From Cyanophora paradoxa CCMP329 (lineage: Eukaryota; Plantae; Glaucophyta): a DNA stretch of 64,000 bases. The position numbers were made by a program, and so were the translations under genes. The DNA lies in contig QPMI01000053.1 in the NCBI GenBank assembly GCA_004431415.1, positions 1 through 64,000 of the forward strand, written 5' to 3'. Below, one piece after another: positions 1 through 51,320 of the stretch (position 1 is the stretch's first letter; each line of letters starts with the position of its first letter). The notes beneath the pieces are model-generated. The model did no database searches. It had not been told where the DNA came from and was given only the letters and a program-made list of their open reading frames with translations.

Positions 1-366
1 CGCAGGCGCCGAGATCGGAGGGCTGGGCCGCGGGCGCGGAAAGGGCAAGGGGCGCGGAAGGGCAGGGGCGCGCGGTTAATTAATCTGACGCCCGCAAGAT
101 GTTCCAGGGGGAATGCACCCACTCGGACGTCATCACCGTCGTATGCGGCGCGCTCTTTCCTGATTTCCGAGCTGCTGGGCGGCACGGAGCGAGTGCGCCC
201 CAACACCGTGCTGGGCGCCCTGAAGGCGGCGGCCCTTAGGGTCGTGCGCCGCGGGCAGCCCGAGCCGAGCCCCGCCGAGCAGGGCGCGAGAGCGTCCAGA
301 ACATAGGCCCGCACCACGTGGACATTCAGATGACGCAGACCGGTACGCGTTTTTTTTCTAGAGAAC

Positions 367-728
367 ATGGGAAATGGAGACTCCCGCGACACCAGCCCCC
401 AGCGCCGAGGATCAATCGTCCACCAACACAGCACCAGCAGCAGCACCACGGCCTACCCTTGGCTTCTTACGCTTAAGCGCAGCAGCAGCCGAAGCCACCG
501 GCGGAAATGGCGGCTGACCTGGATCGCGTGCACCGCCGCGCCATCGCGAGCTACGCCAAGCGGGTCGAGCAGTACCACCCCCAGATGGCAGAGGACGCCA
601 GGGCGTACGCGAAAAACCCCGCCGCGAGCCGCCCGTGATGGCCGCCGTCATCGACCGGCTGCAGTGGGCGCTGCAACGAGGAGGGAGAGCGCGTCAGGAA
701 TTTCTTCATGCCCAAGTAAATTTCTGAA
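367..728 (+). CDS. Hypothetical viral protein (frameshifted)
   Basis: ATG at 367 after a T-run and TCTAGA; a plausible reading (DLDRVHRRAIASYAKRVEQYHPQMAEDA) needs frame changes. End approximate. Confidence 0.35.
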
Positions 729-748
729 AAGGGGCCTTAAACCCGAGA

Positions 749-938
749 ATGATGTCCCTGCCGAGCCTCGACAACATCCTCAGCGATTCGCGCTACCTGG
801 GCAGCCTCCTGACCCTCGGCGCCGTTGCGTACATGTCGCCCGCGCGCTACTACCTGCTGCGGATCCTCCTCGCACAATTCGCGGGGCTACTACTTCGTGG
901 GGCCCACCCTCCTGAACATGGGACCGAAGCGGGCTTAA
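749..938 (+). CDS. Small hydrophobic (membrane) viral protein
   Basis: MMSLPSLDNILSDSRYLGSLLTLGAVAY...YYLLRILLAQFAG; upstream motif present; one frameshift needed to reach TAA at 936-938. Confidence 0.5.
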
Positions 939-966
939 TTTCTCAGCCCTCCTAAGGCCCTAAATA

Positions 967-1416
967 ATGTCCTGCGTTAACCTCTACGCCAGTCGAACGG
1001 AGAGACGCAGGATTCCGAGGGCTTCTGGCGCCTCAGCTGAACCAGATCCCCTCCGACATCGACACGCTGCAGATCAAGGGAGTTCTACCTGGAGCTGGAC
1101 ACGACCGCGATTCCGGACCCCACCGCCGCGAAAAACCGTAAACGTGCTGCTGATGACGTGCCCGATTTGAACGTCACGACCATCTCGAACGTGAACGCGT
1201 GCATCAACAAGGTCGTGATTCCGACGTGGGGCCACGACGGCCTGGAAAAACACCATCCTTTACTGGTTCGAGGTGCCCATGGCCGTGCCGCCGAATTACG
1301 TCGCGTACGACAAATTCCAGGAGCTGCGCGTGCGCTTCACCGACATCACGGGCGCCACCAAGAAGAACAACGCCTTCATCGTCAAGAACTTCGGCCTCTG
1401 GGCCTACGCTAAGTAG
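967..1416 (+). CDS. Putative minor capsid (penton-like) protein, frameshifted
   Basis: Stitched translation VLLMTCPDLNVTTIS...YWFEVPMAVPPNYVAYDKFQELRVRFTDITG resembles the Polinton/PLV penton C-terminal pattern (hhh-C-D-h ... F-x-x-h-x-h-x-h-x-D-x-x-G). Recognised by eye only. Confidence 0.5.
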
Positions 1417-1444
1417 GCCGACTAGATTTCGCAGGCCCCCTTAA

Positions 1445-1920
1445 ATGCGCCTGATCATATTCACCGCGAAAGGGCTCGGGCGTCAAGACGCGTACCTTTA
1501 CGGGCGTGCCTGGCTACCCCTCGCCCCTTACTTACAGAGTCGATCTTGTAACCGCCTCTGGTCCAATTAAATACGGGCTGCTGCACAGCCTCAGTCACAT
1601 CCGTCTCGGTGAGAGCGCATGGCAGGACTTGGCCTTAATCGTAGAATTCGAGTACAGGGGTAGACACGCTAATGGGCGATCACTTTTACAGGGTACGGGT
1701 AGCAAGGGAGGGGTACTCGCTGCCGAACGGCACGGGTGGGAATACTGGGAGCCAAAGATTCGCGACGCCTCCGAGCCTACCGCTGGCTGCGTGACGAGCA
1801 GATCACTATCAGGCCCGATTACCCCTACGCCGACGTTTTCTGGCAGGTGCCCGTGGGCCGCTGGACAACGGGCGAGGTGTGAGCGGCAAGCTGAAGTGGA
1901 CGTGGGACGCGGAGCATTAG
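1445..1920 (+). CDS. Hypothetical viral protein (frameshifted)
   Basis: ATG at 1445 with upstream motif; overlaps ORF 1506..2003; probable end SGKLKWTWDAEH* at 1920. Confidence 0.45.
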
Positions 1921-1945
1921 TTAATTTTTCTCTCTCGCGGATAAA

Positions 1946-4900
1946 ATGTCGATGCTCGACGACCCCTGGCGCATGGCCATCCCGAATCCGGACGAGGTGC
2001 TGAACGGTGCCTTCGCGATAGACGGGAGCCTGAGCGTGAGGGGAATTTACGCGGATGAGATAAGGCTGCGCAAGGGCGCGACCTACAGCGATTTCCTGAC
2101 GTCCGTCGGTACCTTGGACGATTACGGTGACCTCACCGCAATTATCAAGGGGCTCTGGGGCGTGACGACCGAGACGGGGCGTGGACTGGAACATTATCAA
2201 GAGGGCGGCCGACGTGAAAATCGCAAACTCGGTCACCGCAAAGGATGCCACCCTGAACCTCGTGAAACTGACTCTAAAGGGGGCAGAGGGAGACGTGAGG
2301 CCCGGGTACACGCACTCGAGCGCATCGCGGGCCCCCTGCGCCACATCTACTGGAGCCGCCAGGCGCTGCCGAGCATGGAGCCCGAGCAGTACAGGCGCGA
2401 CAGGGAGGAGTTTTTTCGCGTGGTTCGACCACTTCAAGGTCAACATCCGCGCCCTGAGCGCCGACAGGACGGGCGAGACGCCGGAGACGACGGGCGGGGG
2501 CCGCATCCCAACGGCGCCCGACGTGCTCCCCGATCGCTCGGACTGGGCGAAGACGCAGAACTGGGCGCTGAAGGACCACTTCCACGACGAGAGGTACGCC
2601 CTCGTCAAGCACCCGCACGTGAAGGCGACATCACGGACTGGGCGCACCGCCACCTGTACGACGACATCATCGGCGGGCCCAAGGTGCCGGGTGCGATTCC
2701 GGGTGGGGGTACGGGTGGTGGAAGCACGGGAGGTGGGGGTACAGGCACCGGGGGTGGGGGTACAGGCACCGGGGGTGGGGGTACAGGCACGGGGGGCGGA
2801 GGGGGCTCCAGCGGCACGCCAGTGGGCGGGGGCGGGGCAGCAGCGGCTCGGGTGGCGGCGGCTCAGGCGGGAGGGCATGGATAAGGTAGCAGGCCTCGCC
2901 ACTTCAACGGCCATCTTCGGGGGCGCCCTCATCGTAGGCGGCATCAAATACTACAAGGATCGGAAGGGGTTCGTGAGGCAAATCGACGAGCTGAACGCGA
3001 GACCCCCCATTAAATTCGATACCGAGGACGCGCAGCGCGAGTACTACAAACTCGAGAACGAAAAGAAGCAATGGAGCGAGCTGAAAGACAAGGAAATGAC
3101 AGAGGTCGCGGAGAAGAAGGCGGAAGCGAACAAGCTGATGACAGACGCGCAAAGGCAGGAAGAGAGCGCCCTCACCGCGCTAAGGTCGGCAGAGCGCCAG
3201 GTCGCGGAAGAGCGCACGAAAATGATACTCGACGCCGAGGAGGAGCTGAAGAGGATAAACGAGCAAAGGAAGCCGCCAAGGCGAAAAAGCTGCAGGAAAT
3301 TGAAGCGCTGACCGCAGGCACGAGCTGCTTGAGGCGCAGAGGAAAGAGATCGAGGATAGGAAGAAGAAATTGGAAAAGGAGGCAGAGACGAGGGCAGCTG
3401 CTGGAAGAGGAAGAGGAAACGAGGAGAAAGGCAGGAGAGCTGCAAACGGGGGCGGTGCAGGAGGCGAACAGGCTCCGGAGGAAATCAAAAATTTAAAGGA
3501 GGCCGCCGAGCGCGCGGACGAGCAGTCGTCGAAAAATTCAAGGCCAACGCGGACGAGCTGGCACAGAGGCTGCTCAAGTACGCGGCCACGGCAGAGGCTC
3601 GCTCGCGCCCATGGGGACGGCCGAGACGCAGACGACGCCGAGGCCCGATCCGAGGCCGGCCGCCGAGAGGCTGCCCTTCGCGCGGCTGGGTAGGAGCGAC
3701 CAGGTGGAAGAGCTCATTGGCCTCACGCTCGAGGATCAGAGGGCCCTCTTCGACGCGTTAGAGCAGCGGCGCAGGCGGACGAGGAGGCAGCTGCCAAGAC
3801 AGAAGAGGAACGACTGAAGGCAATGCAAACTGCATCAGACGAGGAATTTGCACGGCTGGAGGAGCCGAAGGTAGCGGAGCGTAAGCGACGACTGGAGACG
3901 TTCAGGGGGGCGCAGATGGATTTTTACCGCTCGGAGCTCAAAAAACTGAAAGAAGGAAATGCATCGGGGGACAGGGTCCGCGCCATGGAAGAGAACATGC
4001 GCGACTTTAGCTACGTTATGGATCAGAAGACGCCGAAGAACTGAGGAGAAGATGGCCGATGAGAAGTGGAAAACTTTGAGCGTCAGGCTGTTCAGAGGCC
4101 CATCAGCGATGCCATCTGGATAGCATACGGCGACGTGGAGGAGATGCACCGCGAATGCGGACGGAAGTGAGCCTATGGCGGGGAGCCCTCGAATGGTCAC
4201 TGTACCGGATGCAAAGGGAAAGTTTGTGGCAGAGCTGCGAGCCAATCCGAAAACGGTGAGCGCGGGCGCACAGAGCGCGTACCTCTCCATGGTCGATTAC
4301 GTGGGCAAGCTGAGCAAATTTGGGAAATGCGAAGAGCCATCATTCCAGCGGAGGGGCTCGCGCAGTACGATGCCATGGTGCGCGATCTGGAGGCCTTCAA
4401 ACGTGAGCACCCACCCGCCAAATACAAGATTCACATAGATACGACGGCATTCATGGGCGATCTAAGGAAGAGAGGAGACGAGGCCAAGAGTCAGATCGAG
4501 GAGCGCTACAGAAAGGCCCAAGCGGACAAGGAGTACGCAAACAGGGTGATTGAAGAGCGGAAGCAGCAGGCGAAGGAGAACGCGCGAGACGCAACGCCGA
4601 GATAGAAGAGCAGAGGCGGAAGATCGCAGAGCGCAAGGCGGCAGAGGAAGAGGCAAGAAAGACCAAGGTAGAGACAGAGTACCAAGCATTGAAACGGGAG
4701 GCCAATCAAATATTAAAACGAAGGGAAGGGCGTACGCCGATGAGGGCGCGGGCGTCGGCTTGGCCAGCCCAGACGACATCACACTCGCGGAGAGGGACGA
4801 CGTTTCCGTGGAGGAGATGCGCCCGGGCACCGCCCGCCTGCCCTCCGAGGGCGTGTTTCAGACGCTCGACAGGCGCGTGATGGGCGACTCGGACGTTATT

Positions 4901-7106
4901 TTGCGCAACGCCCTCATGCCCTACGGCGACTGGAACCGCGCCACCGCCGACGCCCTCGCCGATTTCGACCTCGAGCGATTCACCACCAAAGAGCAGCGCG
5001 ACGCGTACCTGGGGCGCCGAGGGCAAGGCGGCCCGGGGTGCCAAGGAGGCCCTCAGCGCCGAGACGCTCTTCTCGGCGGCGGGTACGGCGAACAACGACG
5101 GCATGTCTTTCGGGGCAGCCGATTTATTTCAGGGGGCGGGCATCGACTTGGTGGGCGCCGGGCTCGGGGTACGGGCTCGCGGGCCATGCGGCGGGCGGGC
5201 GCGCGGCGGCGGGCCTTGGGCTGGCGACGGCCGCGGCCTGCTCTCGGCCTACCAGGCGCTCTCGCAGGGCAAGATAGGGGAGGCCGAGTTCTTCGATACG
5301 TTCCGCGATCAGATGATCATGACGGTCGGCTCTTTTGGCCTTCAGACGGGCATGTCGTCCGCCCTGAGCGCCCTCACGAAAATGAGGATCGCACGGTGGG
5401 CGGACTTGGCCTGTCCATCCTCGCGGGCGCCATCGCGCAGGTGATCGTGGATATCATCAACGGGCGCAGCGCGGAAGAAATCGTGAAGAACTTTTTCAAG
5501 TACCCCGTCGACTGGGCGACCGACACCATACAGTTCATCGCGGAGCTCTCGCAACAGATCTACGACTGGGGCGTCGAGACGTGGGCGACGAGGCGAGCCA
5601 GCTGCGCAACCGAATTAATCGGCTGGAGGGCGAGCTGGGCTCCGGATTTTTGGGTGTGTACGACCCCTCGGAGGCGCGCGAAATGGCCTCGCTCTTGGCC
5701 CAGGAGCTGCGGTTAAACGAAATCAAGGAGCCGAAGGAGCTGCAGGCCTTCATTCGCGCGCTCGACAACAGCATCAACGATTACCGTACCCCAAGGACCA
5801 GAAGACCCTGCTCGAAATCGATCGCGCGACCGTGCTCTTCCTCTCCCAGCTCACCGTTAAAATGCAGGAGGGCTTCGGGTCGACTTCGCTCGCCCTGAGT
5901 CGACTTATGCGCGACCTGAAGCAGATGATAAAGGAGGAGACCAAGGGGCGGAAGCGCGTCTTAATTGCCGTCTACCAGGAGGGCCTCAACAGGATCAATC
6001 ACATCGAAGCCCTAAGGCGCGAATTCGGCTCGGCCATCCGTCACTCGGGCGTCTCGTCGAACGGAGGGGCGCAGGTGGCCCGCCTGGCGGACGCCAACTC
6101 GCGCCTCGAGATTCCCGGACCTTCCGCATGCAGGATTGGTGGGAGGCCGAGGCCTTCAGGAATTACGGGGCCTTCATAGACAACGGGATCAATTCGCAGA
6201 GCCCCAAGGCAAACTGGCTGGTACCCAAGGCCTACGTCGATAAATTGGTTGACAGGCCTGCAGCACCATACACAAGAAGATCGCCAAAGGCATCGAGTAC
6301 TGGGCGCCCGAGCCAGGCCAGCCCGTGTTTGCATCGCAGAACTACGAGTGGCACATGGCGCCGGGGCGAGCCAGGCCGTGAGCACCGTGGGCGTTGCCGT
6401 GCCGCAGCTGGCGACGGTGGCACACACGGGGGCGTATGCAGATCTCAGCGGGAGGCCGACGATACCGTGATACCAACAACGTGGGCGTGGGATAGCATCA
6501 CGGGGAAGCCGAGTACGTATCCCCACGCAGACCACCAGCACACCATCTCTCAGATCAGCGACTGGACGGCCCCGGACTTGACGAACATCTCCGTGGATTG
6601 GGACAACGTAACGGGCAAGCCACTTACCTTCCCCCCTCTACACACAGTCACAATGTGTACTGGGATAATGTCATCGACCGACCCACTTCCTTCCCACCCT
6701 CTACGCACAGTCACACAGAGTACTCGCTCACCAGCCACGGGCACAGAAACGTGAACATGGATGCGTACATAACGCACGGCACGTCCTTCCACTCCTACGC
6801 TGCGTACACGGAGTTTAACATCAATTCAACATACACGGTGACGTTCAACATTACATTCGGACAGGCGTACGACACTGGAGGCGGACTGGGACCCCAGCAA
6901 ACCCAACGCCGGTTATTAACGTAACCCCTCGTTCGACATCAATCCCGGCGGCAGCACGGATGTCGATTTCTACGGGCCAACGTCACGGCGGTGAGTCACA
7001 CTGGCTTTACAGTTAAAGTGAGATTCCAACCCAGAATGACGGTCACGCCCACCCAAATTGTCCAGCTTTTATTCATTGGACCGCGATCGGCAAGCTGCTT
7101 ATGTAA
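1946..7106 (+). CDS. Giant fibre/coiled-coil virion protein (~1700 aa if frameshifts are joined)
   Basis: Successive ORF-track fragments join by single-base shifts: HxH motifs (DHFHDERY, HRHLYDDI), GGGGTGT linker, hydrophobic segment, long E/K/R coiled coil, tail-fibre repeats WDSITGKPSTYPHADHQH and WDNVTGKPLTFPPSTHSH, and a C-terminal SHTGFTV...WTAIG domain. May be more than one gene. Confidence 0.6.
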
Positions 7107-7130
7107 TCGATTTTCTGATGCAATCCAAAA

Positions 7131-8248
7131 ATGTCGGTCGCTGTCCCTCTATTTACCTATGCTGCCAGCGTGAATCACAAGGGCGATCACACGATTAAGG
7201 AGACCACCTCGGAAACCAGGCCACCGAGGCCCCTACAACGCCACGGCCGTCCCCTTTTCCGAGGCGACCTCGTCCGCGTCGGCGAGCTGCGCTGCGACAA
7301 GATGCGCACGCGGGAGGGCGGGTCGGCCGTGCCGGGGCGCGTGAGGACGCAGAGGCTCACCGTCACGAACGGGGCCTGGGACGGGAGCGGGTACACCACG
7401 AATCAGGTGACCTTTAATGGGACTGTGAACGGGGAGGGAATGCGGCTCTGTATGTGCAAGGAGGCGGAGCAAACGTGTGGGGGGCTTAGGGTGAGCGGGG
7501 CTTCAAACTTGGCGGGCATCGTTACATTGGACGATAAGCTGCAAATTACCGGAACGTCACCGTACATAAATGGCGGTGGTTCAGGCGTAGCTATAAAGTA
7601 CAACGAAAACGATAGACTCCTCTGTGGGACTCTTGGCGTTGGTGTTACAGGTACTCTATTTACCTCGGCAATCGAAGGCCCTACTAATGGCCTAAGCATA
7701 GCAAACACTTCAATCGTTGATAGCGGAAGCGTCAGCTCTGGTCTATCCTTGAGAAACAACGGCACCGAACGACTGCTGTGCGGAACCGTCGGCGTTGGCA
7801 TCACGGGTCGGCTCATCGTCTCGACGCTCACGGGCGATGGAAACCGAGCCGTTTATTCGGATGCTCAAGGATACCTGACAAACTCGTCGAGCGATAGCCG
7901 CCTGAAAGAAAATGTCGCGAGCATGTCGGGCATTCTCCCTCTTCTGCTGCAGCTGAATCCCGTGTCGTTCACCTGGAAGAACACATCCTCGGGGGTTCGA
8001 AAACGGATTACGGTCTCATCGCACAGGAAGTCCAAGGCGTCTTCCCGAGTCTCGTTTTCGAGAACGCGGATGGATTTCTCGGGGTAAACTACGACAGGCT
8101 CATTTCCCTGTCGTTGAAGGCAATTCAGGAACTTTCACAAGAAGTTCAAACTCTCAAAGACCAGGTAGCGCACTGGCGAGCTGATCTGGAACAACTAGGA
8201 ATAACTACACCGCGAGTATCACAATTCGACCGTTGCCACCGTCGCTGA
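7131..8248 (+). CDS. Fibre protein with C-terminal intramolecular chaperone (Peptidase_S74)
   Basis: SSDSRLKENV...LNPVSFTWK, then after a frameshift near 7990 YGLIAQEVQGVFPSLV...GVNYDRLISLSLKAIQEL; internal repeat NENDRLLCGTLGVGVTG / NGTERLLCGTVGVGITG. Exact stop uncertain. Confidence 0.85.
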
Positions 8249-10334
8249 AAGACGAGCCACCGTTGCCGCCCCTACCAATGCCTGCTGCGTAGTGAGCGTC
8301 TCCGCTATTTCCTGCCACCTGGCCGGACCCAGGATACACCGTAGCATCCGTCAAGTTTCCTATGTAGCTCGAGCCACCGCCACCTCCAAACATTCTTGCT
8401 ATTGGGTTCTCTGACACTCCGCTCCTGCTGGACCCAGAGCCTCCACCGAAGTAACCACCACCACCACCACCACCGAACCTGTAGCCGCTTGAATCAGGCC
8501 CAGTCTCTCCACCTTGGCGCAAAGTTCCCGGGTTGCTGGGCCTGGCCCTGAGGCCACAACACCGGCTCCGCCAGCGGTTTGGGTGCCTCCTTGAGCCGGT
8601 ATCTCTCCGGTTACTCCAACCAACCAGCCGCACCACCGGTCAACCCCCGCCTACTCCCCGCCGCCATTCGAATCACATGTACCCCCACCTCCGGCCCTGC
8701 AACAACCAAGTCGGTCCCTGCAACGCGCTGAATTGCAGAACGACCACCACCGGCGCCGTTTTTGTACTCCGGATCGACGCTATGGCTCCAGCCCCTTCCA
8801 CCACCTCCGTAGACGGTAGCAGTGGCAGTCCCCGATACACCCTTTGGGCCGCCGCATCCAACAACAAGGATGAGCGTCTCCCCGAGGACACAGCCAATGT
8901 ACCAACTACGCAAGCACCCGCGCCTCCACGGACCCCGTACCTGCGCGTTCTCCGCCTCCACCCCCGGCCGCCCATACGATGACACGCACAGCCACAGTCC
9001 CCGTTGGTACTACGAAAGTCTGGTCGGCCCGGTGTAGGAGAATGTACCCAAAACAGGAGCGTTTGCAGTTGTTGCACTGGCAGACGAGGACTGAGGGCCT
9101 TCCTCGCCGATCTGGTTGACGCCCTTGATGGTGTAAGTGTAAGTGGTTCCGTAAACGGTCGTTGTGTCCGAAAAGGGGCTGCTCGTGTCGCTGGCAAGGA
9201 ACACGCCACCCCTGTAGATGTTGTAGGAGACGGTGACGCCCGTCACCGGCACCGACCACTCGAGCACAACAGGCTGTGCTGCCCCCGCCGCGGGGGTTGC
9301 AGTGAGCCCAGTGGGCGCCCCCGGGTCCGTGGTGACGTACGCCGCAATACTCTTCGGCCCCTCCCTCCCGTGTTCGTCGCGGAGATCTGGTACTCGTACC
9401 CTGTACCCAGACGGTGGTCGTGTCGCTGTAGGAGTTGGTCGCGGAGTCTGTGAGGTAGGCCCCGTCTCTGTAAATCTTGTATCCCGTCGCTCCCGTGGAC
9501 GCAGTCCAGCTGAGGCTGACAGGCTGCTGCTGGTCGTTGGGTGCTGATGCCGTCACGTTCGTGGGGGCGTTTGGCATAGTCCAGACCAGGAGCGGATCGG
9601 ACTTGTCGTATTCGACACCGCCCACGATGCCGGCCACCTGGTAAGAGTATTCCGTGCCCCACGTAAGAGCAGTGCTATCGTCAATGTACGAGGTAGACAG
9701 GGCACTGCTCGCAAATCCGATTGGCGTACCGTTCCTGTAAATTCGAATCGAGTCCGCGCCCTCCATGGCCACCCAGTTGATTGTGACGACTATGGCGGGT
9801 TTCGGGAAGCCCGAAGACGCGGGGCCGCCCCGGCAATAAAATCGCCGTAGGTCTGGGCCGTGGCGGTCGTGAGCGTGGTGTAGGCTTCGATCTGCGGGCT
9901 GAAGCCGCCTATGCCTTGGAAGAGAATGTAATTGCTCATGGCACCCTCGTGGGTGTAGAGAAGCGACTGTGCGTAGGTTGTGGGCGGGGCTTTGCCATCA
10001 GAGCCCGTGCTGCTGCTGCCCTGTTCGCGAACCGCCGCCACGCGGTAGAGTCGCTGGGCCCCAAACTAAAGGGAGAGTCCGTGTAGGTGACGGTTGGCGC
10101 ATTCACCGTGGCCACGAGATCCCAGGGGCCGTTGATGCTGGTCGCCCTGTACACCTTGTACTTGACGGCGTTGGTGACCGCGACCCAGTTCAGCTGAAAG
10201 CCGTACGTACTGTTCCCGTTGTTGAGCACGGAGCCCGATCGCACCTGGGGCCTGCCCACAGTCAGCGAGATCGGCTCCACGCCATACTGCGGAGCCTGCA
10301 CCACCTGCTTTTTCACGAATACGAAGCGGGGCAT
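8205..10334 (-). CDS. FN3-repeat plus glycine-rich domain protein (putative adhesin), frameshifted
   Basis: Four FN3-like units (LNW..KYKVYR, INW..IRIYR, LSW..GYKIYR, LEW..SYNIYR) followed by FSYTG.DQTFVVP...WAAGGGGG...GGGGGGYFGGG...GGGGSSY...GGNGRIVI. Confidence 0.8.
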
Positions 10335-10371
10335 TTTCCTCTACGATCCGAAAAATATCTGCCCCGGGTAA

Positions 10372-11049
10372 ATGACTTCCAACTGGTACCAGACCCTCAG
10401 CGGCTCACTTGACGTTGGCAACAACACCAAGGATTTCGCACGCATACCCTCCGGCAGTTACGTCGACGTCTTTCTGCAGAATCCCGTCGTGATTCAGGTC
10501 GTTCAGAACGCCTACGCCACGCCCAAGATTTATTCCTACCAGCTCTTCTTCGACCCTCTGAGCCTCAGCGCAGAGGTTATCGAGCTGCTGCACGAATCAG
10601 GACTCGTGAAAAAGGTGGCACCTGCCACGGCCACTGCCAACGTCTTGCGCTGTCTCGAGGTCAAGTTCAGGGAGACGGGGTACGGCCCACCGTGAACCGG
10701 TACCCCAGTTCTTCGAATCTTCCGGGTACGGGAACTTACCAGATGAGGGGTACGCTCAAGGGCGACGTGCTCTTCACGAAATTCAATCCAAGTCCCGCGA
10801 CCCTGGGGCCTCTACACGGGCGGCAACCCACGCGGCTCGACTCTACCCCGCTTCCCCTTCACCTTTTTCAGGTTCCAGGTCTTCCCCCTCTCCTACGCCG
10901 CCGACCAGCCCCACTTCAGCACGGGCGCCAGCCTCTGCGCGGAGCTGCGTGAGTGCTCGATTTCCTACGCGTACGGCACCGACGCTGACTCTGTGCCTGG
11001 GGCCCGCGTCATGAACATCGGTGGCGACATCACCCTCTTTCACGGATAA
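10372..11049 (+). CDS. Unrecognised viral protein, paralog A (frameshifted)
   Basis: ORFs 10372..10695 and 10692..10952 joined; aligns with the downstream gene (QNPV, SGLxKK, LExKF, LFTKF). Confidence 0.65.
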
Positions 11050-11072
11050 TCTTTCTCATTTGAGGTCGCAAA

Positions 11073-11884
11073 ATGCCGACCACCTCGGCCACCATCGTGA
11101 AGACCGTGTCTGCCGGCTCGATCGTCCCGATTTCTACGGCAACGCTGGGAACGTGGCCAACGCAGGGACGGACAAGGTGGAGTGGGACGGAAACTACGCC
11201 ACCCCGCTCACCGTGAGGGTCCAGAATCCCGTCATGTTGCGCGTCACCTCCAACGATTTCGAGAATCCCGCCTCCTGCTCCGTGTACGTGTACTTTGACA
11301 TCGACTCGGGCGTGAGCGCGGATGAGGCGGAGGCGCTCTGGCTCTCGGGCCTCCTGAAAAAGATAGAGCCCTCTGTGCCTGATCGGCCCGCCATTCGCGT
11401 GCTCGAACTCAAGTTCACCGCTAACACCGCCCTCACTCGCAAATTCGGGAATGGTGCGAATCCGAACATCAAAACGCATTTAGATGGCGCCCTCATCGAT
11501 GCCACACACAAGACCACGCAGGCCGTTCCCTTTGAGATGTACAACCTCTGGAAGATGACCGCAAAGGAGATGATGACGAATGCCACCACGGGCGGCGCCT
11601 CGGGTACCGATTATTCATACGGCGCCTCGAATCCCCGTACCCAGGTCTGGCCCCGGCTCCTCTTCACGAAATTCACTTTCAAATTGTACAACAACATCGC
11701 CGGAATGCCTACCTCTGGAATGGTCGTGGGCTCTACCCTCATGGCCGAACTAATTGAGGCAGAGGCGGACTACACGACTGCGACTACCAACTCGACAGCG
11801 CCAGGCGCCGGAGCCGAAGTTTACGTGGCCTGGGAAACGGTCGGTCGCGAGTACGACACCAAGATTCACACCACTAGCGTCTAG
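11073..11884 (+). CDS. Unrecognised viral protein, paralog B (~270 aa, candidate structural protein)
   Basis: ATG at 11073 (aaaATG, upstream motif), one frameshift near 11127, then a long clean ORF to TAG at 11884. Confidence 0.75.
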
Positions 11885-11920
11885 ACTGGCTAAGCTGCAT
11901 TAGCACCTGTGTCGCCTCCA

Positions 11921-12238
11921 TCATCTCCGAATCTCCTCGCTCTTCTCCTGTAAATTGGCGTACCCCCTCCTCTTCTTGCGAATCTCCGACATTGATGCCC
12001 AGCGCAGGTTCTCCCTCCTGTAGTCCAGCGGGTTGCCGTTGATGTGTTCCACGTAGCGTCCACGTGGCGACTTCCCGAGGATCAGCTGGGAGAGGTAGTG
12101 CTTGCGCCCTCCAAACGTCTTGCTCACCCTGTCCCTGTCCACTCTCCAGGGAAACTCCAAGGCACTCGGGGGTACGTCCGAGTTGACCAGGACGTTGTAG
12201 GCGACGTCTTGCGAGTCGGTGCACCGGAGCAGGGCCAT
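11921..12238 (-). CDS. HNH endonuclease-like protein (HNH_3 type)
   Basis: YLSQLILG...YVEHINGNPLDYRRENLRW matches the phage VDHINGNxLDNRxxNLR motif, with some substitutions. Confidence 0.8.
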   Translation of the reverse strand: MALLRCTDSQDVAYNVLVNSDVPPSALEFPWRVDRDRVSKTFGGRKHYLSQLILGKSPRGRYVEHINGNPLDYRRENLRWASMSEIRKKRRGYANLQEKSEEIRR

Positions 12239-12262
12239 TTTGCCCTAGGTTCAGAAAAACCT

Positions 12263-12314
12263 GGGACTTGGGACTTGGGACTTGGGACTTGGGACTTGGG
12301 ACTTGGGAAGAGTT
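12263..12314 (+). repeat. (GGGACTT)6-GGGAAGAGTT array
   Basis: Read directly. Confidence 0.95.
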
Positions 12315-12743
12315 GAAACCCAGGTCCCGGCCCAGACTTTCTCCAGGATCAGAAATTTGTCAGACAAGTCAGGTGAGTTTTTCTACCGACTTTTTTACTC
12401 CTACCACTCCTCATACTCTTTTTTACTCGTAGTCTTTTTTACTCGTAGTCTTTTTTACTCGTATCCCATCTCGTACCCTCCTTCTCTCGACATCTCACAC
12501 GAAAACTCCTACCCCTCTTCACATCCGTTTTCGGTTGCATACTCTCGTGAGCTTTCATGTCCAGTATCATGCTACAAGTCGTACACCAGTTCAGACTCTA
12601 CCTCGCTTGAAATCTCACCTGGAATGTCACCAGAAACGTCATATGCAGATTTCCGTACCCCTCTACATGTCTGCCCGGTGGTTAGGGACTTGGCGCGGCA
12701 AACTCTCAGATCCAGAGAGATTCTGGGCCCAGACCCTGAGTCT

Positions 12744-12802
12744 AACTCTTCCCAAGTCCCAAGTCCCAAGTCCCAAGTCCCAAGTCCCAAGTCCCAAGTC
12801 CC
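12744..12802 (-). repeat. (GGGACTT)7-GGGAAGAGTT array, inverted relative to 12263
   Basis: Read directly as AACTCTTCCC(AAGTCCC)7. Confidence 0.95.
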
Positions 12803-12876
12803 AGGATCGCGCCAAGTCGTAACTGAATAGTCGGCCAATTTTTACAAGTATGTACAATGGAATGACGCAATACTAT

Positions 12877-13944
12877 TTACAGCATCTCAAAGTCAGAGTC
12901 ATCGTCATCGGAAACCAACTCAATGAGGCCCTCGGGCGCCGACTTAAGGGGAATGCGGGGAAGGGACTGCGCTGCCTGCACCAAGTCCTGCCGCTCGCGC
13001 TCGCGCTGCGCCGCCAAGGCCGCTGCCGCCTCTGCCTCGCGCTGCTGCTGAGCCTCGATGCGCGCCTTGAGCTCGGCCGCCTCCTTCTGCTTGCGCTCGG
13101 CGATCCGCGCCTTGTTGATCTGGTACTGGACAAGGCGCTCGTGGCGCCGCTTGCGCTCCAACTCCTTGCGGAGCTCGTTGCAGAGGACGCGCTTCTCAAT
13201 GGTCTTGACGTGCTGAGTCAGGCGCTCGCTGTAGTGTGACGTCACGCGAGAACGGGCAATGCCGGCGCCGAGCTTCAAGTCCTTCTCGTGTGCCTTGGCG
13301 GGGTCCTTGACGCGCTCGGAGTTGTCGGTGAATGACGTAGTCTCCATGAACTTCTTCTTGACGATTGACTTGGTCTTGATAATGCGGCGCTTGCGAGTCG
13401 GGTTTTCGTTGTCGCCTTCAGAGTCAGAAGACGACTCAGAGTCGTATGGAATCGGCACGTCAAAGTCGATGAAGTCGTTGATGTCAGACTCGACGTCAGA
13501 GGCCTCGGACTTGGCGTCATCGGCGGGCTCGGGGGCGGGCTCGGCGACGGGCTGAGGGGCAGATGACGACGATGACGGAGGGGGTAATTCGTGAAGACTT
13601 GAGGGGGTAGGCCCAGGCGAGCGTCTCGGCAGCAGACTCGGCGAAAAGCTTGGGGTCGCCCCAGCCGTTGGCGGTCTTGACCCAGCCGGGGACGGGGGGC
13701 ACGTCGACGGGGGGCTCGGGCTTGGGTTGCTTGGACTTGGATTTCTTGGCCTTGGACGTGAAGGCGGACTTGGGGAGAAGTTGCACTTCGGGGCCAGTGG
13801 CGCGTAAGATGGCATAATTGTAGATGTACCCCAGAGCGTCGGCGCGCTGCTCCATCTCAGGGGTAGCCCTTGAGTGCCACCGGAGTTAGCCCACGTTGCT
13901 TGGACAAAGGCGAAGTCCTCGGCAAGCTCAGCGGGAATCGACAT
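12877..13944 (-). CDS. Putative viral regulatory protein (Pro/acidic region, basic NLS-like motif, coiled coil, SIM-like C-terminus)
   Basis: ATG at 13944; TRKRRIIK; C-terminus IELVSDDDDSDFEML; probable compensating frameshifts in the 5' part. Confidence 0.65.
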   Translation of the reverse strand: MSIPAELAEDFAFVQATWANSGGTQGLPLRWSSAPTLWGTSTIMPSYAPLAPKCNFSPSPPSRPRPRNPSPSNPSPSPPSTCPPSPAGSRPPTAGATPSFSPSLLPRRSPGPTPSSLHELPPPSSSSSAPQPVAEPAPEPADDAKSEASDVESDINDFIDFDVPIPYDSESSSDSEGDNENPTRKRRIIKTKSIVKKKFMETTSFTDNSERVKDPAKAHEKDLKLGAGIARSRVTSHYSERLTQHVKTIEKRVLCNELRKELERKRRHERLVQYQINKARIAERKQKEAAELKARIEAQQQREAEAAAALAAQRERERQDLVQAAQSLPRIPLKSAPEGLIELVSDDDDSDFEML

Positions 13945-14282
13945 CTGCGCAAAGGGAAAAGAAATCAGCAAAGGCAAAACGTGAGGTGACTGTGAGGGCG
14001 GACTTGTGAAAATTCGGAGAGGCAGGGTTTCCTTGGGCTGAGAGAAGGCGGCGAACCCGTTTCAAGAGTGAGGCAAAATGGCGGCGGACCGCGGTTTTGT
14101 GGGCGAATTTTTTCCTGGGCTAGTTCGCAACGGAAAACGTTGCCAACTGGCCTGAAAAAGCCAAATTTAGCGTTGGACCGAAGACAGAAAAAGGAGCCGG
14201 CCTGACGGAAATTGCCCGAGTGCGTCCGCCGAAGGTCGAGTCTCGGATGGGGGGTACACCCTCAGGGGCCCCCCCTGGCCCC

Positions 14283-14753
14283 TCACCCTGGTAGTACCCT
14301 CTCAAAGGGATTTTCGAAGCCGTACAATTCTTGGTAAGTCTCGTAATCCGGGCTGTACCCCCTCACAATCTGCGGGAGCCCCATTGAAAGCCTCCGTCTA
14401 TCCTCTCTCAATTCCCTGCGGAAAAGTCTACGGTCTTCTCGAGCTTCGCGCGTCACGCCAGCTGGGCGTGGTCTATGATTGTTAGGGTTGTCGTAGCCTG
14501 GTCCCACCAGCCTCACGAAATTTTCGCGTATGGCCTCGGGGAGACTCTGGAAACGGTTCGTTGCGTGGAACTCGATCCATTCATTGAATCGACGCGGATA
14601 TTGACGGATGACTTCAAGCACGCCCTGTGTGTTGGGCTCTGGTGTTATGTCGGGAATGTCATGTCCTGTGAGGTGCCAACGCCAGAACTCGCGCAGCCTC
14701 TCGAATGCCATATGCAACTCAAAGGGGAAATCGTAATAGAGATTGCCTGACAT
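14283..14753 (-). CDS. Hypothetical viral protein, 156 aa
   Basis: Clean ORF MSGNLYYDFPFEL...; upstream AATTTTCGGA motif and aaaaATG context. Confidence 0.7.
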   Translation of the reverse strand: MSGNLYYDFPFELHMAFERLREFWRWHLTGHDIPDITPEPNTQGVLEVIRQYPRRFNEWIEFHATNRFQSLPEAIRENFVRLVGPGYDNPNNHRPRPAGVTREAREDRRLFRRELREDRRRLSMGLPQIVRGYSPDYETYQELYGFENPFERVLPG

Positions 14754-14803
14754 TTTTCTCCCCCTCCGAAAATTTCCCCGTTTTGAGTCCAGACTCTGAT
14801 TCC

Positions 14804-14862
14804 AACTCTTCCCAAGTCCCAAGTCCCAAGTCCCAAGTCCCAAGTCCCAAGTCCCAGGTCCC
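14804..14862 (-). repeat. Third (GGGACTT)n-GGGAAGAGTT array
   Basis: AACTCTTCCC(AAGTCCC)6AGGTCCC read directly. Confidence 0.95.
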
Positions 14863-15233
14863 ATTTTTCTCCCATTTCAGTCCGAGATTTTGCCCAAGTC
14901 CAAATCCGGGCCCGGGATTCGAACCCTCGTTTTCGGTCGATTTCACGCGTGAAAAACGCACTTTTCGGCCTTTTCCGATTTTTCCTTTCTCGCGATCGCA
15001 GAAATGCCCCCGATCTCGAAATCGCGATCGAAAAGGGTCGCGATCGGGAGAAAGTCGCGATCACCAGGGTCGCGATCGGGTCGCGATCGCCGCGATCGCC
15101 AGCCTCGGAGGGGGTACCCCCACAGCTGTTGCGGCGGTTATAAGAACCTCCGCAATCCAAGCGTCACTTCCGAGTCTCGAGCTCTCGGAGTTGCCTTTTC
15201 GCGTTTGGCCCATTGATGGCCCTCGTATATATG

Positions 15234-15604
15234 GGCTGTGTTTCGCTGTCGGGGATTTGTATGGGAGCCGCGCTACGTAAGCACTAGGTAGTTAAAACAT
15301 GATGGTGATGTCACGTTTTGCATGATGTCAGGTTAATTTCGAAGTAATTTCGAGTCTCTACGTAGCTAGCGCGGGCGCTAATTCTTTACGATTAGCGCCC
15401 GTCATCGGAAGCTACGTTCAACGGTTCTTAGGATTTCTAGTGAAACAGCCAATGGGATGCCAGTGCCGGATGGGTACGCAAAGTATCAGCACACTACGAG
15501 CTCGGAGCAAGCGACACCCAGACGGCACTTACATCATGATGGCATCACACTTTTTTCCCCACAGTTAATTTTCACTACGTAGTGGGCGACAGCGAAACAC
15601 AGCC
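15234..15604. mobile_element. MITE, PIF/Harbinger-like
   Basis: Perfect 18-bp TIR GGCTGTGTTTCGCTGTCG (15234-15251 / 15587-15604) flanked by 3-bp direct repeat ATG. Confidence 0.75.
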
Positions 15605-16209
15605 ATGCTGCCACAGTGCGCCGGCTTATACGTACTCAGTGATTATATAATTACGGTAGCTTGAACTACACATAGCGTACGCGTAGCTCGGACGTCGACG
15701 ATCGCGAGGCTCAGGTGACTCAGTGATCTATTTACAAGTTAACTTTAGTAACGTTAGACGTCGACATCCGACCTTAAGCTTAAGCGCTAGCTTAGCTATA
15801 TATATAGCCGCTGAGCTCAGTTGTCCGCCCCCCGGAATCAAAGACGTCCGAACTCGGCTGAGCACTGGAGGAGGCTAAGGAGCTCAAAAATAACAGTGGT
15901 CACTCGCGATGCAGGATATGCCGCAGTGCAGGGGGAAACTGACGCCGAATGATGACGAGCAAGCACACGTGCACGTGTGCTGGAACAACCCACCCCCAGA
16001 TACAGCCCTCTGGAACGCACACATTGCAGTGCCACGGTGGAAAGGCTGCTGAAAACAGGAGAGCTGCCAGTGCTTATGCCCCACAGGTAACCTGCCTAAG
16101 CTATAAGCTAGCTGCAAAGTCTTCCCCGGGCGAATTCTTCGAATTCGCAGCCGCCGACGTTGCCAAGTTGTTCTTCGTGTACCCCGCGACGCCACCAAGG
16201 CTCGCAGAA

Positions 16210-18048
16210 ATGAGGGGGTCGGCGCTGTTCCTCCTTGGCCTTCTGGCCCTAGCGGCAGCATGGGAGAACTCCAAGCAGGTCCTCGTGCTTCTCGACAATG
16301 ACGACCTGCGCTCGACGCACTCCATGTTCTTCGGTGCAGTTGAGGGTGCGCATACGACTTATGCCCGCTTGCGTGCCATTCTCGCGGCCGGCGCCCTCGT
16401 CTTTCCGCGTGCCCGAACTCAGCGAGCTGACTGGAGCTTTCAGACATGGGCTTCAAGCTGGACTTCCGGAGGTCGAACGACCCCGACCTCGTGCTCGAAG
16501 AGTTCGGCGTGTTCAAATATGACGCGCTGATCCTCTTTGCGCCGTCTACAGAGGGTGCGCCGTCGGCCGCGCTTCCCAGCAGCGGCTCTCGGTTCGAGTA
16601 GCGGCGCGCCTTCGCAGAGTTCGGCGGGAAGGTGGATGTCGCAGGCATCCTCAAGTTCATCGACAGCGGGCGCGATGTCCTCGCCGCGGCGAGCCCCAAG
16701 ATGGCCGACCCTCTGCGCGAGCTGGCCGCGGAGTGCGGCATCGAGTTTGACGATGACAACGCGTTTGTCATCGATCATTCGAACTACGACGCGTCGGACG
16801 CAAATGGCCCACACACCCTGGTCCTTGCCAGCGACATCATCAAGTCGAAGATCATCGTCCCGGATCTGAAAGCCCCTGTTCTTTTCCGCGGTGAGCTGCA
16901 GCGGCTAATGCTGCCGATCCGCTGGCCTAAGACTCGTGCAGGCATTGGCCAGACTGTCATGGATAACAACCCTCTTGTCCTGCGGATCCTCACAGCGTCG
17001 CCCACCGCGTACACTTACGTGCAGTCGAAGAGCGTGAAGGAAGCGCCGCTTGCCACTGGCAAGGACACGCTTCTTGTCAGCGCACTTCAAGCGCGAAACA
17101 ACGCCCGTGTCACATTCTCTGGCTCGCTTGAGCTCTTTAGCAACCGCTTCTTCAGTTCACCTGTGCAGCGTTTCAATGCTGACGGCAAGATCGAGACGTC
17201 AGACCGCTTTTTAGACCTGGCCCAATGTTTCGAATGCTCACGGGCGCGCAGGCTGTCGAGATCGGGCAATCAGCAGTTCGCGGTGGAAGTCGCTCGCTGG
17301 ACGCTGCAGGAGAAGGGCATGTTGCGTGCAACCAACGTGCGTCACCGCATTGTGAACGGCACGGAGAACCCCGAAATCTACCGGATCAAGGACTCCCTCG
17401 TTCGTGGGCCGCCCGCCAGCATCGCGCGCATTCACGAACCGGGTGGGCAGGAGTACAAGGTTGATATCATGGAATACAAGGACGGCAAGTGGATTCCCTT
17501 CGTTGCCGACGACGTCCAGGTGGAGCCTTCTTTTCTCTTACTGAGCTCAGTACGCCGCTCTCCATCGTAACACTCGGTGCACAGCTCGAGTTTACCATGC
17601 TGGACCCGTATGTTCGCACTACGCTTCAGCATAATGGCAAGGGCACCTATTCCACCACGTTCCAGGTGGGCTTGCGCCTGCTATCACAGTGTTGACCTCG
17701 AAGATCTCACTTCAAGCAGGTCCCGGATGTCTATGGTGTCTTCAAGCTGGTGCTGCACTATCGCCGAGTCGGATACAGCACCCTCTCTGCCTCCCACCAG
17801 GCTCGCCTAGCTGCTTTCTTTTTCTTTTCCCACTTTGCTCTGCTTATGCGCCCACAGGTCGCGGTGCGGCCCTTCGACCACAATGAGTATGAGCGCTTTA
17901 TCGTTTCTGCTTACCCCTACTACGCGTCGGCTTTCTCGATGATGGTATGCTTTTGCTCTCGCTTTGTGCCGTTCAAGTTCCGAATGACCTCGCCACTCAG
18001 GTTGGCATGGTCCTCTTCTCCATCGTCTTCCTTTTCAACAAGAGTTAG
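16210..18048 (+). CDS. WBP1: Oligosaccharyltransferase 48-kDa subunit (multi-exon)
   Basis: Signal peptide; [20 protein letters not shown]; [10 protein letters not shown]; [20 protein letters not shown]; C-terminal TM helix. Confidence 0.95.
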
Positions 18049-18158
18049 AGCTGCATTCTTTGTTGCTTATTTTACAGTAAAAAAGGCTGGGGGCGAGCAT
18101 TTGGCCACCCATATGCATACACGCAAGTAACCATTTTGGGGCGGGGGGTGGGACGTGG

Positions 18159-18450
18159 ATTTGGACACGTACTAAGGGCTACAAGTGTGGGATGTACACT
18201 GCAGCCGCCGCGGCCGCAGGCCCAGCCCACCAGGGAGCTGGCCGGGCGGGCCCTGCGTGGCCCCGTAAGGCCCTGAGGAGAGTAATGCGCCTCCCCACGG
18301 ACATTCTGGCTAGTTATAGCTACATCGCGACTTGTGGCGGTGCCGGCGGGGGTACTGATCGCGATCGCGACCGTCTCGGGGCGGTGGCGGGAGCGCCTAC
18401 AGGCCCTGCAGCTGGGGGCCCGACATGGAGTCAGCCTGCGCCGGGGGCGC
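18159..18450 (+). repeat. Arm of GCATTTGGACACGTACT TIR family
   Basis: Matches arms at 32014, 42558, 59967 and 61607. Confidence 0.8.
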
Positions 18451-19318
18451 AAAAAGCTGCCAGGCTAGGGCTGCACGCAACGTAGTATTAATCAAGGACG
18501 ACAGCCCAATTAGTACCTTCGTCCAACTTTCCGTCCACCTTTCGTCCAACCCCTAATCGTAATCGTAATCATGATCAAAGACGCCCAACCCCTCTCAGAG
18601 TCTCGAGCTCGACAGCTAGTGCGGCATGAAGTGCGGCTCGAGCTCCACCGCGCACATGTCGTCTAGAGAGAGCAGTCTAGTTAAACAAGGGAAGTCTAGT
18701 TAGTTAAATCCGCGGAGCCTGCCGAGGCTTGGTTGATTGTTCGTCCAAGCCCCCAAAGCCTGAGATGTACACAGCAACGATACGTGTGAGATATACTGTG
18801 GCTGATTTGGATTTCGATTACAATTTCGATTACGACTACGGGTGGGGAAGGAGTCTCTCCTTGAGATACTTTTCCCTCGACTTCGAAGGCGCGTACTTCG
18901 CTACAAGCATGCCTGAAATGCCCAACTGCTCGGCAATTTTGTTCTGCGCCAATTGGTCCACGTACCTTAGCCTGGACCGCCCCGACACGATCAGCATCGG
19001 CGGGGGGGGGGGGCGCTAGCCACCCCGCTCAGCGGCGGGGCGGACAAGCGCTTGCAACGGCAGTTACAGCTTGACGAAGACGGGCGCACCTGCGTATCTT
19101 CTCGATGAGCTCGGCGTCCTCAATGCGCCGCGGACCGGACGGCGCCGGCTCTGGAGCTGGTGGATGCCGCACGATAGAGAATCCGTCAAGCTTGTGTATA
19201 GGCTGGATCGCGGCGCTGCTCGTCGCGGCGCGCCGCGACATCCGTACGAGCGACTGCATGCATGCGCAATTGAACAAACTCGGCCTGTGACAGTGTGACA
19301 CGCGTCTACGGGTACAGT

Positions 19319-49396: not shown

Positions 49397-50504
49397 ATGT
49401 TCCGCGCAGCCGCCTCGCTTCTGAAGAAGGTTTGCAACCAGGAGAGCGCGCCTGTGGGAGCGACAGCAAAACGTCGTTGACCTTGCGCGCCGCAGGAGCT
49501 GCCCGCGGCCGCCGCCGCGGGAGTGGCCCTCGCCGCGTTCGGAGGTGCCACGGCATTTGCTTCGGATGACTCCCTGCAGCCGCCTTTCTACCCGTGGTCG
49601 CACTCGGGGCCCCTCAGCGCGTTCGATGCCGCCAGGTCAGCTGGATCCCCGCCCTCGCTGTGCGGCCTCTTGCCGATGCACTTGTACTCTGCAGCATTCG
49701 TCGCGGGTTCCAGGTGTACAAGGGCGTGTGGTGCGGCTAACGACTATCGCTAGCGTGTGCCGCGCCACTTACGCCGGGCGCCTTCGCAGTTCCGCCTGCC
49801 ACAGTATGGACCGCATCGCCTACCGCAACCTGATCAACGTTTGCTACACGGAGGACGAGGTGAAGGCGCTTGCCGCCGAGATTGAAGTGAAGGATGGCCC
49901 GAACGACGCTGGCGAGATGTTCATGCGCCCCGGCAAGCCGTCCGACAAATTCCCGCGGCCATACGCGAACGAGCAGGCAGCGCGCGCTGCGAATGGCGGC
50001 GCCTACCCTCCGGACCTGTCGCTGATCATCAAGGCCCGGGCCCGCCGCGAGGACTACGTCTTCGCGCTCCTTACCGGCTACAAGGAGCCTCCCGCGGGTG
50101 TCACCATCCGCGAGGGCCTCCACTACAAGTGCGCGGTAGGCCCACCGCTCTGCTTCGCAACTCACAACATATTTCGCAGCCCGTACTTCGCTGGTGGCGC
50201 CATCTCGATGGCGCAGCCGATCTACGATGGCAGCGTCGAGTATGATGATGGCACCCCGAACACTGCGTCCCAGATTGCAAAGGATGTCGTCACTTTCCTG
50301 GCCTGGGCGTCTGAACCGGAGGCCGATGAGCGCAAGAAGGCGGGGCTCAAGTGGATCGGCACCCTCTCCATCGCTCTTCTCGCGACTGCGTACTACAAGC
50401 GCTTCCGCTGGAACGTCATCAAGTGTGTCCTTGTGTCTTGCTCGATCTCTCGTCATAGCTACTAATGCTTTCTCAGGAATCGCCGCCTCGAGTTCAAGCT
50501 TTGA
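49397..50504 (+). CDS. CYC1: Cytochrome c1, mitochondrial
   Basis: [12 protein letters not shown]; spliced VCSACHSM heme motif; [13 protein letters not shown]; [14 protein letters not shown]. Confidence 0.97.
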
Positions 50505-50750
50505 AAAAAATGTATCTCAATCCAGCCACACTTGGTACAGTGTTGTGTTCTATCTCAATTCATTCGCACGATCAAAGACACCAGATTATGAAAGCTTAAA
50601 TCGTGATCAAGAAGTCTAGTTCAGGTCTGATCACAAGTGCACTGCGGCTTTCACTGAGTCAGGCCACGGAGACGTCTGCACCAATGGTCCAACCCCTTGA
50701 TCGCTAGATAGATATAGCTAAAGCTCGAGTCGGGCAGGAATCCGTCTAAA

Positions 50751-51320
50751 TGCTCTTTCTACGCTACGGGCGCGCCGCACCTCCTACCTACAGTGCTTTA
50801 ACTGTACCCGTGCTGTTTGGGTGAGAGCGTAACCCGCAGGGACTGGTGCCCTGATGGAAAAAAGGGAATCGGAGCCTAGCTAGCTACGAGCTGAGCAGGC
50901 GCTTCGCGTCCACGCCCGTGCCGTAGCGGATCAGGATGCCCCTGCGAGAGGTCTGTGCGATCAGTACGATTACGATTGCGATCGGGCGGCGCTGGGAGGG
51001 CGAGCCGGCCCTAGACGGAAAATTACGCCGTGGATAGGCCGTGTCGGGACTAGGCGGGGGGAGCAGCGATTGTGTATAGGCGTGTATAGACACAACACGC
51101 ACCGCGCGGCGCCGCCGTCGTGGTCCGCCCGGAAGCCGCACCCGGGGCGCCGGCGGCACTCGAAGACCCTCTTCGAGCCCAGCGTGTATACGTAGTTGAT
51201 CTTGCCGCACATCCCGCACGTCTTCGAGGTCCAGGCCTCGCAGACGAGCTGGAGCGTGCACGGCGGGTCCTCATCCTTGGGGTGCCGCCGAACGGCGTGC
51301 TGCAGGAGCTGCCGGAAAGC
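50751..51320 (-). pseudogene. Fanzor2/TnpB 3' remnant plus omegaRNA-like end, copy 6
   Basis: FRQLLQHAVRRH...EAWTSKTCGMCG...FEC...CGFRADHDGGAAR. Confidence 0.88.

What the first reader, a model, noticed from the sequence alone, without database searches (positions are those of the whole stretch)
1..15200. Integrated virus with a phage-like fibre set and no recognisable major capsid gene in view
Seen: about 12 packed genes including three fibre/adhesin-type genes, a penton-like gene and an HNH gene, next to intron-rich protist genes. Known: Polinton-like viruses and virophages integrate into protist genomes and encode a penton, a double-jelly-roll MCP and an A32-like ATPase. Inference: this is the right part of such an element, or of an undescribed lineage, since most genes match nothing I recognise and over half the visible length goes to fibres.
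Basis: partly seen in the sequence, partly recalled or inferred. Interest (0 to 1): 0.85.

Follow-up and report, generated by a model that had tools for sequence, protein, structure and literature searches.

The report
Integrated polinton-like virus in glaucophyte alga
The first 15.2 kb are the right-hand arm of a virus genome inserted at many places in the DNA of an alga that is most likely Cyanophora paradoxa; it is likely an ordinary polinton-like virus whose main capsid gene would lie just outside the window, and its one unusual feature is a duplicated gene pair predicted to bind single-stranded DNA.

The parts
1..79 (+). 3' end of an upstream gene with a Gly/Arg-rich basic C-terminus, cut by the window start
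   Evidence: three-frame translation
99..306 (+). small hydrophobic ORF (one predicted membrane segment), one frame break; end approximate
   Evidence: (P0035 maps here)
367..719 (+). small ORF of unknown function, several frame breaks; start inferred
749..938 (+). small ORF of unknown function (~60 aa)
   Evidence: P0028 maps here
967..1416 (+). 149-aa single jelly-roll protein, likely penton / minor capsid protein; 6 frame switches in this copy
1445..1920 (+). ~155-aa ORF of unknown function, frame-broken
   Evidence: no Pfam/PHROG/NCBIfam hit
1946..7106 (+). giant ~1,600-1,700-aa protein: N-terminal domain, Gly-rich linker, two hydrophobic segments, long charged coiled coil (tape-measure-like, inferred), C-terminal phage-tail repeats and a variable tip
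   Evidence: 34 frame switches; 1,583 of 1,591 residues of P0046 matched; tail collar fibre gp4, E 1.6e-4
7131..8200 (+). fibre with C-terminal Peptidase_S74 intramolecular chaperone; end approximate
8205..10334 (-). ~710-aa adhesin-type protein: several FN3 domains and a glycine-rich C-terminal domain, frame-broken
10372..11049 (+). paralog A (226 aa), predicted OB-fold SSB-like by homology to paralog B
   Evidence: (hhalign A vs B prob 98.2, E 5.8e-14)
11073..11884 (+). paralog B (260-270 aa), predicted OB-fold, closest to T7 gp2.5 / Enc34 SSBs (weak)
   Evidence: (pLDDT 65.6, pTM 0.71); contrary lead
11921..12238 (-). HNH_3 endonuclease (105 aa, unbroken)
12259..12803 (.). non-coding unit bounded by ~85-100-bp inverted repeats, each holding a 7-bp G-rich tandem array (6.7 and 7.7 copies)
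12877..13944 (-). ~355-aa ORF: Pro-rich, acidic and basic/coiled-coil blocks; function unknown, likely regulatory; frame-broken
   Evidence: no family hit
14283..14753 (-). 156-aa ORF of unknown function
14789..14863 (.). third 7-bp array; 75-bp direct repeat (95%) of 12,729-12,803
14946..15233 (.). high-depth terminal sequence; element end at 15,232/15,233 in a short TA run
   Evidence: depth 2,449 vs 50.5 (X1) and 269 vs 17.9 (X2); loose ends to several different flanks
16194..18105 (+). host OST48/DDOST gene, spliced (flank, not part of the element)

Best explanation
Positions 1-15,232 are the right arm of a multi-copy virus genome integrated in an algal genome (most likely Cyanophora paradoxa), likely a polinton-like virus whose double-jelly-roll capsid, packaging ATPase, replicase and integrase genes would lie upstream of the window. 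Shown: a sharp terminus joined to several different flanks, conserved gene order across many contigs, S74/FN3/tail-repeat/HNH domains, and reading frames that other copies carry unbroken. Predicted from models: a single jelly-roll vertex protein and an OB-fold pair. Inferred mechanism: the provirus is copied as a linear DNA with inverted ends by strand displacement, the two SSB-like paralogs coat the displaced strand (as P12 and P19 do for tectivirus PRD1), the DNA is packed into an icosahedral shell whose pentons carry an S74-matured trimeric fibre and an FN3/glycine-rich adhesin, and the giant coiled-coil protein with hydrophobic segments and a swappable tail-repeat tip serves attachment and membrane entry; the HNH gene is a passenger homing endonuclease.
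Confidence: 0.8

Rival explanations
1. The family has no double-jelly-roll capsid; the tandem paralogs are single jelly-roll coat proteins (CRESS-like) that form the shell together with the small penton and fibres.
For: All 7 shown language-model neighbours of paralog B are Cressdnaviricota clusters, some with Gemini/TNV/Nanovirus coat families. The pair sits at the end of the structural block, is conserved in environmental relatives as two ancient types, is about coat-protein size, and its strands can be counted to eight by eye. The published HMM survey scored an MCP in only 2 of 156 glaucophyte elements.
Against: Scores are under 0.9 with low recognition (a lead only). The model (pTM 0.71) draws OB-fold proteins in about 49 of the top 50 rows by my reading of their titles and no jelly roll, while the same pipeline did return jelly rolls for the penton from a poorer model. 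No basic N-terminal arm. The 2-of-156 figure is best read as a blind spot of that survey's models, because another survey found 366 MCP hits in this species.
Confidence: 0.07
2. It is a related but different Bamfordvirae element (for example a small mriyavirus-like relative of giant viruses) integrated in the genome.
For: Mriyaviruses encode a single jelly-roll minor capsid protein and a T7-like OB-fold SSB (PMC11253617); the alga's published MCPs hit NCLDV capsids by HHpred.
Against: No HUH, VLTF2/3 or resolvase gene in view; high copy number with sharp ends fits integrase-bearing polinton-like elements, and rve was counted in 85 of 156 glaucophyte elements.
Confidence: 0.07
3. It is a decayed or non-autonomous provirus that has lost its core genes and is no longer able to make virions.
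For: About 43 frame switches in four genes of this copy; core genes not in view.
Against: Breaks are strongly biased to single-base losses with no stops and near-identical residues; 14 unbroken 149-aa penton sequences are 91-99% alike.
Confidence: 0.05
4. It is a contaminating tailed bacteriophage mis-joined to the algal contig.
For: Tail-type PHROG hits and S74; this exact junction is not bridged by a listed contig.
Against: Same genes in the same order on dozens of algal contigs; the terminus joins several flanks; 14 DNA-type runs of one organism label hold 0.77-0.80 of the words; jelly-roll vertex protein; no terminase, portal or HK97 hit among the ORFs tested.
Confidence: 0.01

Closest known systems
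Endogenous polinton-like viruses of Cyanophora paradoxa (Bellas et al. 2023, PMC10120064; Bulzu et al. 2025, PMC12220804)
   Same: Same host species by inference; multi-copy insertions; minor capsid, Peptidase_S74, HNH_3 and phage-tail-repeat proteins are all counted among those elements.
   Different: Those papers give counts, not a gene map of this family in the parts I read; neither part mentions an SSB-like pair. Whether this family is one of their two MCP clusters (272 and 94 hits) is not shown.
Polinton-like viruses in general (e.g. Gezel-14T of Phaeocystis, cryptophyte PLVs)
   Same: Penton, phage-like fibres with S74, long multi-domain proteins over 1,000 aa, homing endonuclease (PMC12220804 section 13).
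   Different: No GC contrast with the host here; tandem OB-fold-like pair; core module not visible.
Tectivirus PRD1 (two SSBs, P12 and P19)
   Same: Two SSBs serving protein-primed strand-displacement replication (PMC11886824 passages); small penton and small membrane proteins (recalled).
   Different: Bacterial host, not integrating; P12 has its own OB-like fold and I did not show homology to it; here the two genes are clear paralogs.
T7 gp2.5 / Enc34 ORF6 / ASFV CP312R / mriyavirus PEV_26 OB-fold SSBs
   Different: 6-9% identity, rmsd 4-5 A, no acidic tail, no significant profile match; occurs as a duplicated pair.

Membership tests
Polinton-like viruses (Preplasmiviricota) | Double-jelly-roll major capsid protein | not testable with these tools
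   None in 1-15,232; element cut by window start; no genome held. Indirect: 366 MCP hits in the species, one shared contig.
Polinton-like viruses (Preplasmiviricota) | Single jelly-roll penton (minor capsid protein) | tested here: met
Polinton-like viruses (Preplasmiviricota) | A32/FtsK packaging ATPase | not testable with these tools
   No in-frame Walker A in the visible arm; left arm unseen.
Polinton-like viruses (Preplasmiviricota) | pPolB or primase-helicase; rve integrase or tyrosine recombinase | not testable with these tools
   Left arm unseen.
Polinton-like viruses (Preplasmiviricota) | Terminal inverted repeats and target-site duplication | tested here: inconclusive
   One sharp, high-depth end at 15,232/3; the other end is outside the window.
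Polinton-like viruses (Preplasmiviricota) | Multi-copy integration in a protist genome with conserved gene order | tested here: met
   59 named contigs, synteny 14 of 15 and 11 of 11; several flanks.
Polinton-like viruses (Preplasmiviricota) | Phage-like fibre with Peptidase_S74 (common, not strictly defining) | tested here: met
   PF13884 26.2 bits, cut-off 22.
T7 gp2.5 / Enc34-type SSB (tandem pair) | OB fold | tested here: inconclusive
T7 gp2.5 / Enc34-type SSB (tandem pair) | Sequence-profile similarity | tested here: inconclusive
   Best E 0.1 (1 of 30 shuffles as high); the positive control T7 vs Enc34 also failed (E 0.2).
T7 gp2.5 / Enc34-type SSB (tandem pair) | Acidic C-terminal tail (recalled feature) | tested here: not met
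   C-terminal 25 residues of 7 of 7 proteins examined are not acid-rich.
T7 gp2.5 / Enc34-type SSB (tandem pair) | ssDNA binding | not testable with these tools
   Needs a binding assay.
CRESS-type single jelly-roll coat protein (tandem pair) | Eight-stranded jelly-roll fold | tested here: inconclusive
   Not listed for the model; residues 1-27 unmodelled; language-model lead 0.86.
CRESS-type single jelly-roll coat protein (tandem pair) | Basic N-terminal DNA-binding arm (recalled feature) | tested here: not met
   N-termini not Arg/Lys-rich; net charge about neutral to slightly acidic.
Tailed phage (Caudoviricetes) | Terminase, portal, HK97 capsid | tested here: inconclusive
   No such PHROG hit among 22 proteins; left arm unseen.
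Mriyaviruses | HUH endonuclease, VLTF2/VLTF3, two MCPs | not testable with these tools
   None in the visible arm; left arm unseen.

The most novel reading that the evidence does not exclude
This glaucophyte virus family has dropped the double-jelly-roll capsid and builds its shell from two tandem paralogous single jelly-roll proteins akin to ssDNA-virus coats, while keeping a polinton-type penton, fibres and integrating ends: a capsid-swapped chimera not known among integrating dsDNA viruses of eukaryotes.
Probability: 0.07. Interest if true: 0.9.

Novelty: new member of a known kind. Interest (0 to 1): 0.38.

Why it matters
As it stands it gives a gene-level map of the structural arm of an abundant provirus family in a cultured glaucophyte, a lineage for which my searches found counts of such elements but no gene map. 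Near-identical, open copies suggest the family may still be active, which makes induction and virion proteomics feasible. If the tandem pair are SSBs, they fill a gap in how polinton-like viruses protect the displaced strand and echo the two-SSB layout of tectiviruses, their proposed ancestors; my searches found no report of SSBs in PLVs. If instead they are coat proteins, it would be a striking capsid replacement.

Tried and rejected
No whole genome was held, so the left arm could not be read. Scans for free relatives found nothing: viral contigs 6 of 6 with element genes, metagenome contigs 2 of 2. I looked for upstream genes inside fused gene models among 105 stored proteins: none. No RNA-type cover of 14,870-15,145: no evidence either. 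My first idea, that the tandem pair is a split double jelly roll, was not supported: no jelly-roll row for the model, which does not exclude the fold. Sequence searches of solved structures: none for the pair, one chance row for the penton. Pfam found nothing in 13 long copies of the giant protein, so the H-lectin label for its tip was not reproduced here. The atlas gave only unnamed viral clusters for the penton. Profile test against T7/Enc34 SSBs uninformative. Complex prediction for paralog A with B was not available. Rfam and tRNA scan: nothing. Literature searches returned nothing relevant to PLVs. Earlier-findings look-ups were empty. The supplement of PMC10120064 is cut when stored, so its table of MCP coordinates for this species was not seen; it could settle the capsid question.

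Full report
Observation. ORF listing and three-frame translation show a compact, frameshift-ridden block from base 1 to about 15.2 kb, followed by intron-rich eukaryotic genes. I count 13 genes plus the end of a 14th. Pfam on 39 ORF pieces gave Peptidase_S74 (7,119-8,087), fn3 (below cut-off, 8.9-10.0 kb), HNH_3 (11,921-12,244) and, outside the block, OST48. PHROGs on 22 proteins added tail-repeat and tail-fibre hits. No major capsid, ATPase, polymerase or integrase hit was found, and GC content does not separate block and host.

Host and copy number. A homolog search with the 11.1-11.9-kb ORF returned 14 proteins, 12 of them EukProt gene models, which cluster look-ups name as Cyanophora paradoxa. 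Two window ORFs are themselves exact EukProt entries in those clusters, so the host is most likely this glaucophyte (inference; I did not place the window on a contig). Names gathered from five calls cover 59 contigs; penton and paralog pair lie within 8 gene models on 14 of 15 shared contigs, penton and giant gene within 2 on 11 of 11. These lists are incomplete, since identical sequences show one name.

Integration. Contigs of four public runs were laid on 14,870-19,000. In both DNA-type runs several contigs follow the window to 15,232/15,233 and then run into different sequences, which defines the element's end and shows several insertion sites. Terminal depth is 48-fold and 15-fold that of the single-copy OST48 stretch (a rough guide only). 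OST48 is spliced at 9 short introns in RNA-type contigs. No listed contig bridges this exact junction, but 462 rows were not shown and the flank is itself repetitive.

Frameshifts. Against unbroken gene models from other copies, the giant gene shows 34 frame switches, the penton 6, paralog A 2 and paralog B 1. Of 41 offsets of one or two bases, 32 are single-base losses; one offset was zero and 4 were large, where the model skips sequence. Matched segments hold no stops and cover 1,583 of 1,591 residues of P0046 (partly circular). The neighbouring single-copy host contig matches with 0 differences over 2,134 nt. This fits uncorrected long-read errors in a repeat, which PMC10120064 describes for such elements, better than decay.

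What is known. PMC10120064 (seen: passages; supplement rows of Tables S1, S2, S4; the file is cut before this species' coordinates) lists 366 MCP hits in C. paradoxa in two clusters, assigned by HHpred to NCLDV-type capsids. PMC12220804 (seen: abstract, sections 6, 7, 34, first part of 13, passages, Table S6) counts 156 glaucophyte elements with minor capsid 97, A32 139, rve 85, DNA_pol_B_2 49, HNH_3 40, S74 37 but an MCP by its own models in only 2, reports a tail-repeat + H-lectin protein in a C. paradoxa PLV, and calls S74 fibres ubiquitous in PLVs. PMC8502044 (one passage) mentions adintovirus-like genes in this alga. PMC11886824 (passages) names P12 and P19 as PRD1's two SSBs. PMC11253617 (passages) reports a T7-like SSB in mriyaviruses. 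PMC11161782 (word search) has no SSB mention; PMC12747079 (one passage) was irrelevant. Searches found no paper mapping this family; searches found none describing SSBs in PLVs. One of six MCP-bearing contigs named in the first paper also holds a penton copy of this family: suggestive only. An earlier scan note (e1-7199816, unchecked) describes the same penton-fibre-giant coiled-coil layout in another PLV fragment.

Verdict. The element is real, integrated and multi-copy, and most likely the right arm of a polinton-like virus of a kind already catalogued in this host; the missing capsid is best explained by the window cut (0.8). Membership rests on penton, fibres, ends and multi-copy integration; MCP, ATPase, replicase and integrase were not testable. 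The duplicated SSB-like pair is the only feature that I could not find in print, and it rests on a weak structural match. Interest 0.38; the capsid-swap reading has probability 0.07 and would deserve 0.9.

Noticed in passing
window 1946-7106 and stored copies P0041-P0053, P0092-P0100: Copies of the giant protein are block mosaics: two variants each of three internal blocks and three different C-terminal tips occur in reassorted combinations (all four combinations of blocks 1 and 3 among 18 proteins), pointing to recombination between copies or to assembly chimeras.
   Followed up: partly
window 12259-12803 and 14789-14863: Three arrays of a 7-bp G-rich unit; two form an inverted pair around a 371-nt pyrimidine-rich spacer, the third precedes the last ORF. 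Could be an origin, a small internal mobile unit, or a binding site of the OB-fold pair (speculation).
   Followed up: partly
window 733, 956, 1434, 1631: A short GC-then-TTAA motif occurs 4 times in the element, three of them just upstream of gene starts, and never in the 49 kb of host DNA (pattern chosen after seeing it). Possible late promoter.
   Followed up: partly
window 12877-12910 (minus strand): The 355-aa ORF ends in a hydrophobic-then-acidic stretch resembling a SUMO-interacting motif and has a basic NLS-like patch (recalled patterns).
   Followed up: no
window 367-384: The small ORF may begin with an N-myristoylation-like start (recalled pattern); start not verified.
   Followed up: no
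P0009, P0012, P0018, P0019, P0034, P0104: Environmental (Logan/ENA) relatives exist for both paralogs and the penton (38-82% identity) on 1-2.7-kb contigs, so the family or its hosts occur outside this genome; the A/B split predates them.
   Followed up: partly
window 15241-16100 and 18176-18600: Host intergenic repeats of moderate to very high depth flank OST48; further dispersed repeat families at 35-63 kb.
   Followed up: no
window 49425-57635: Intron-rich host genes resembling cytochrome c1 and an RNA polymerase largest subunit (recognised by eye).
   Followed up: no
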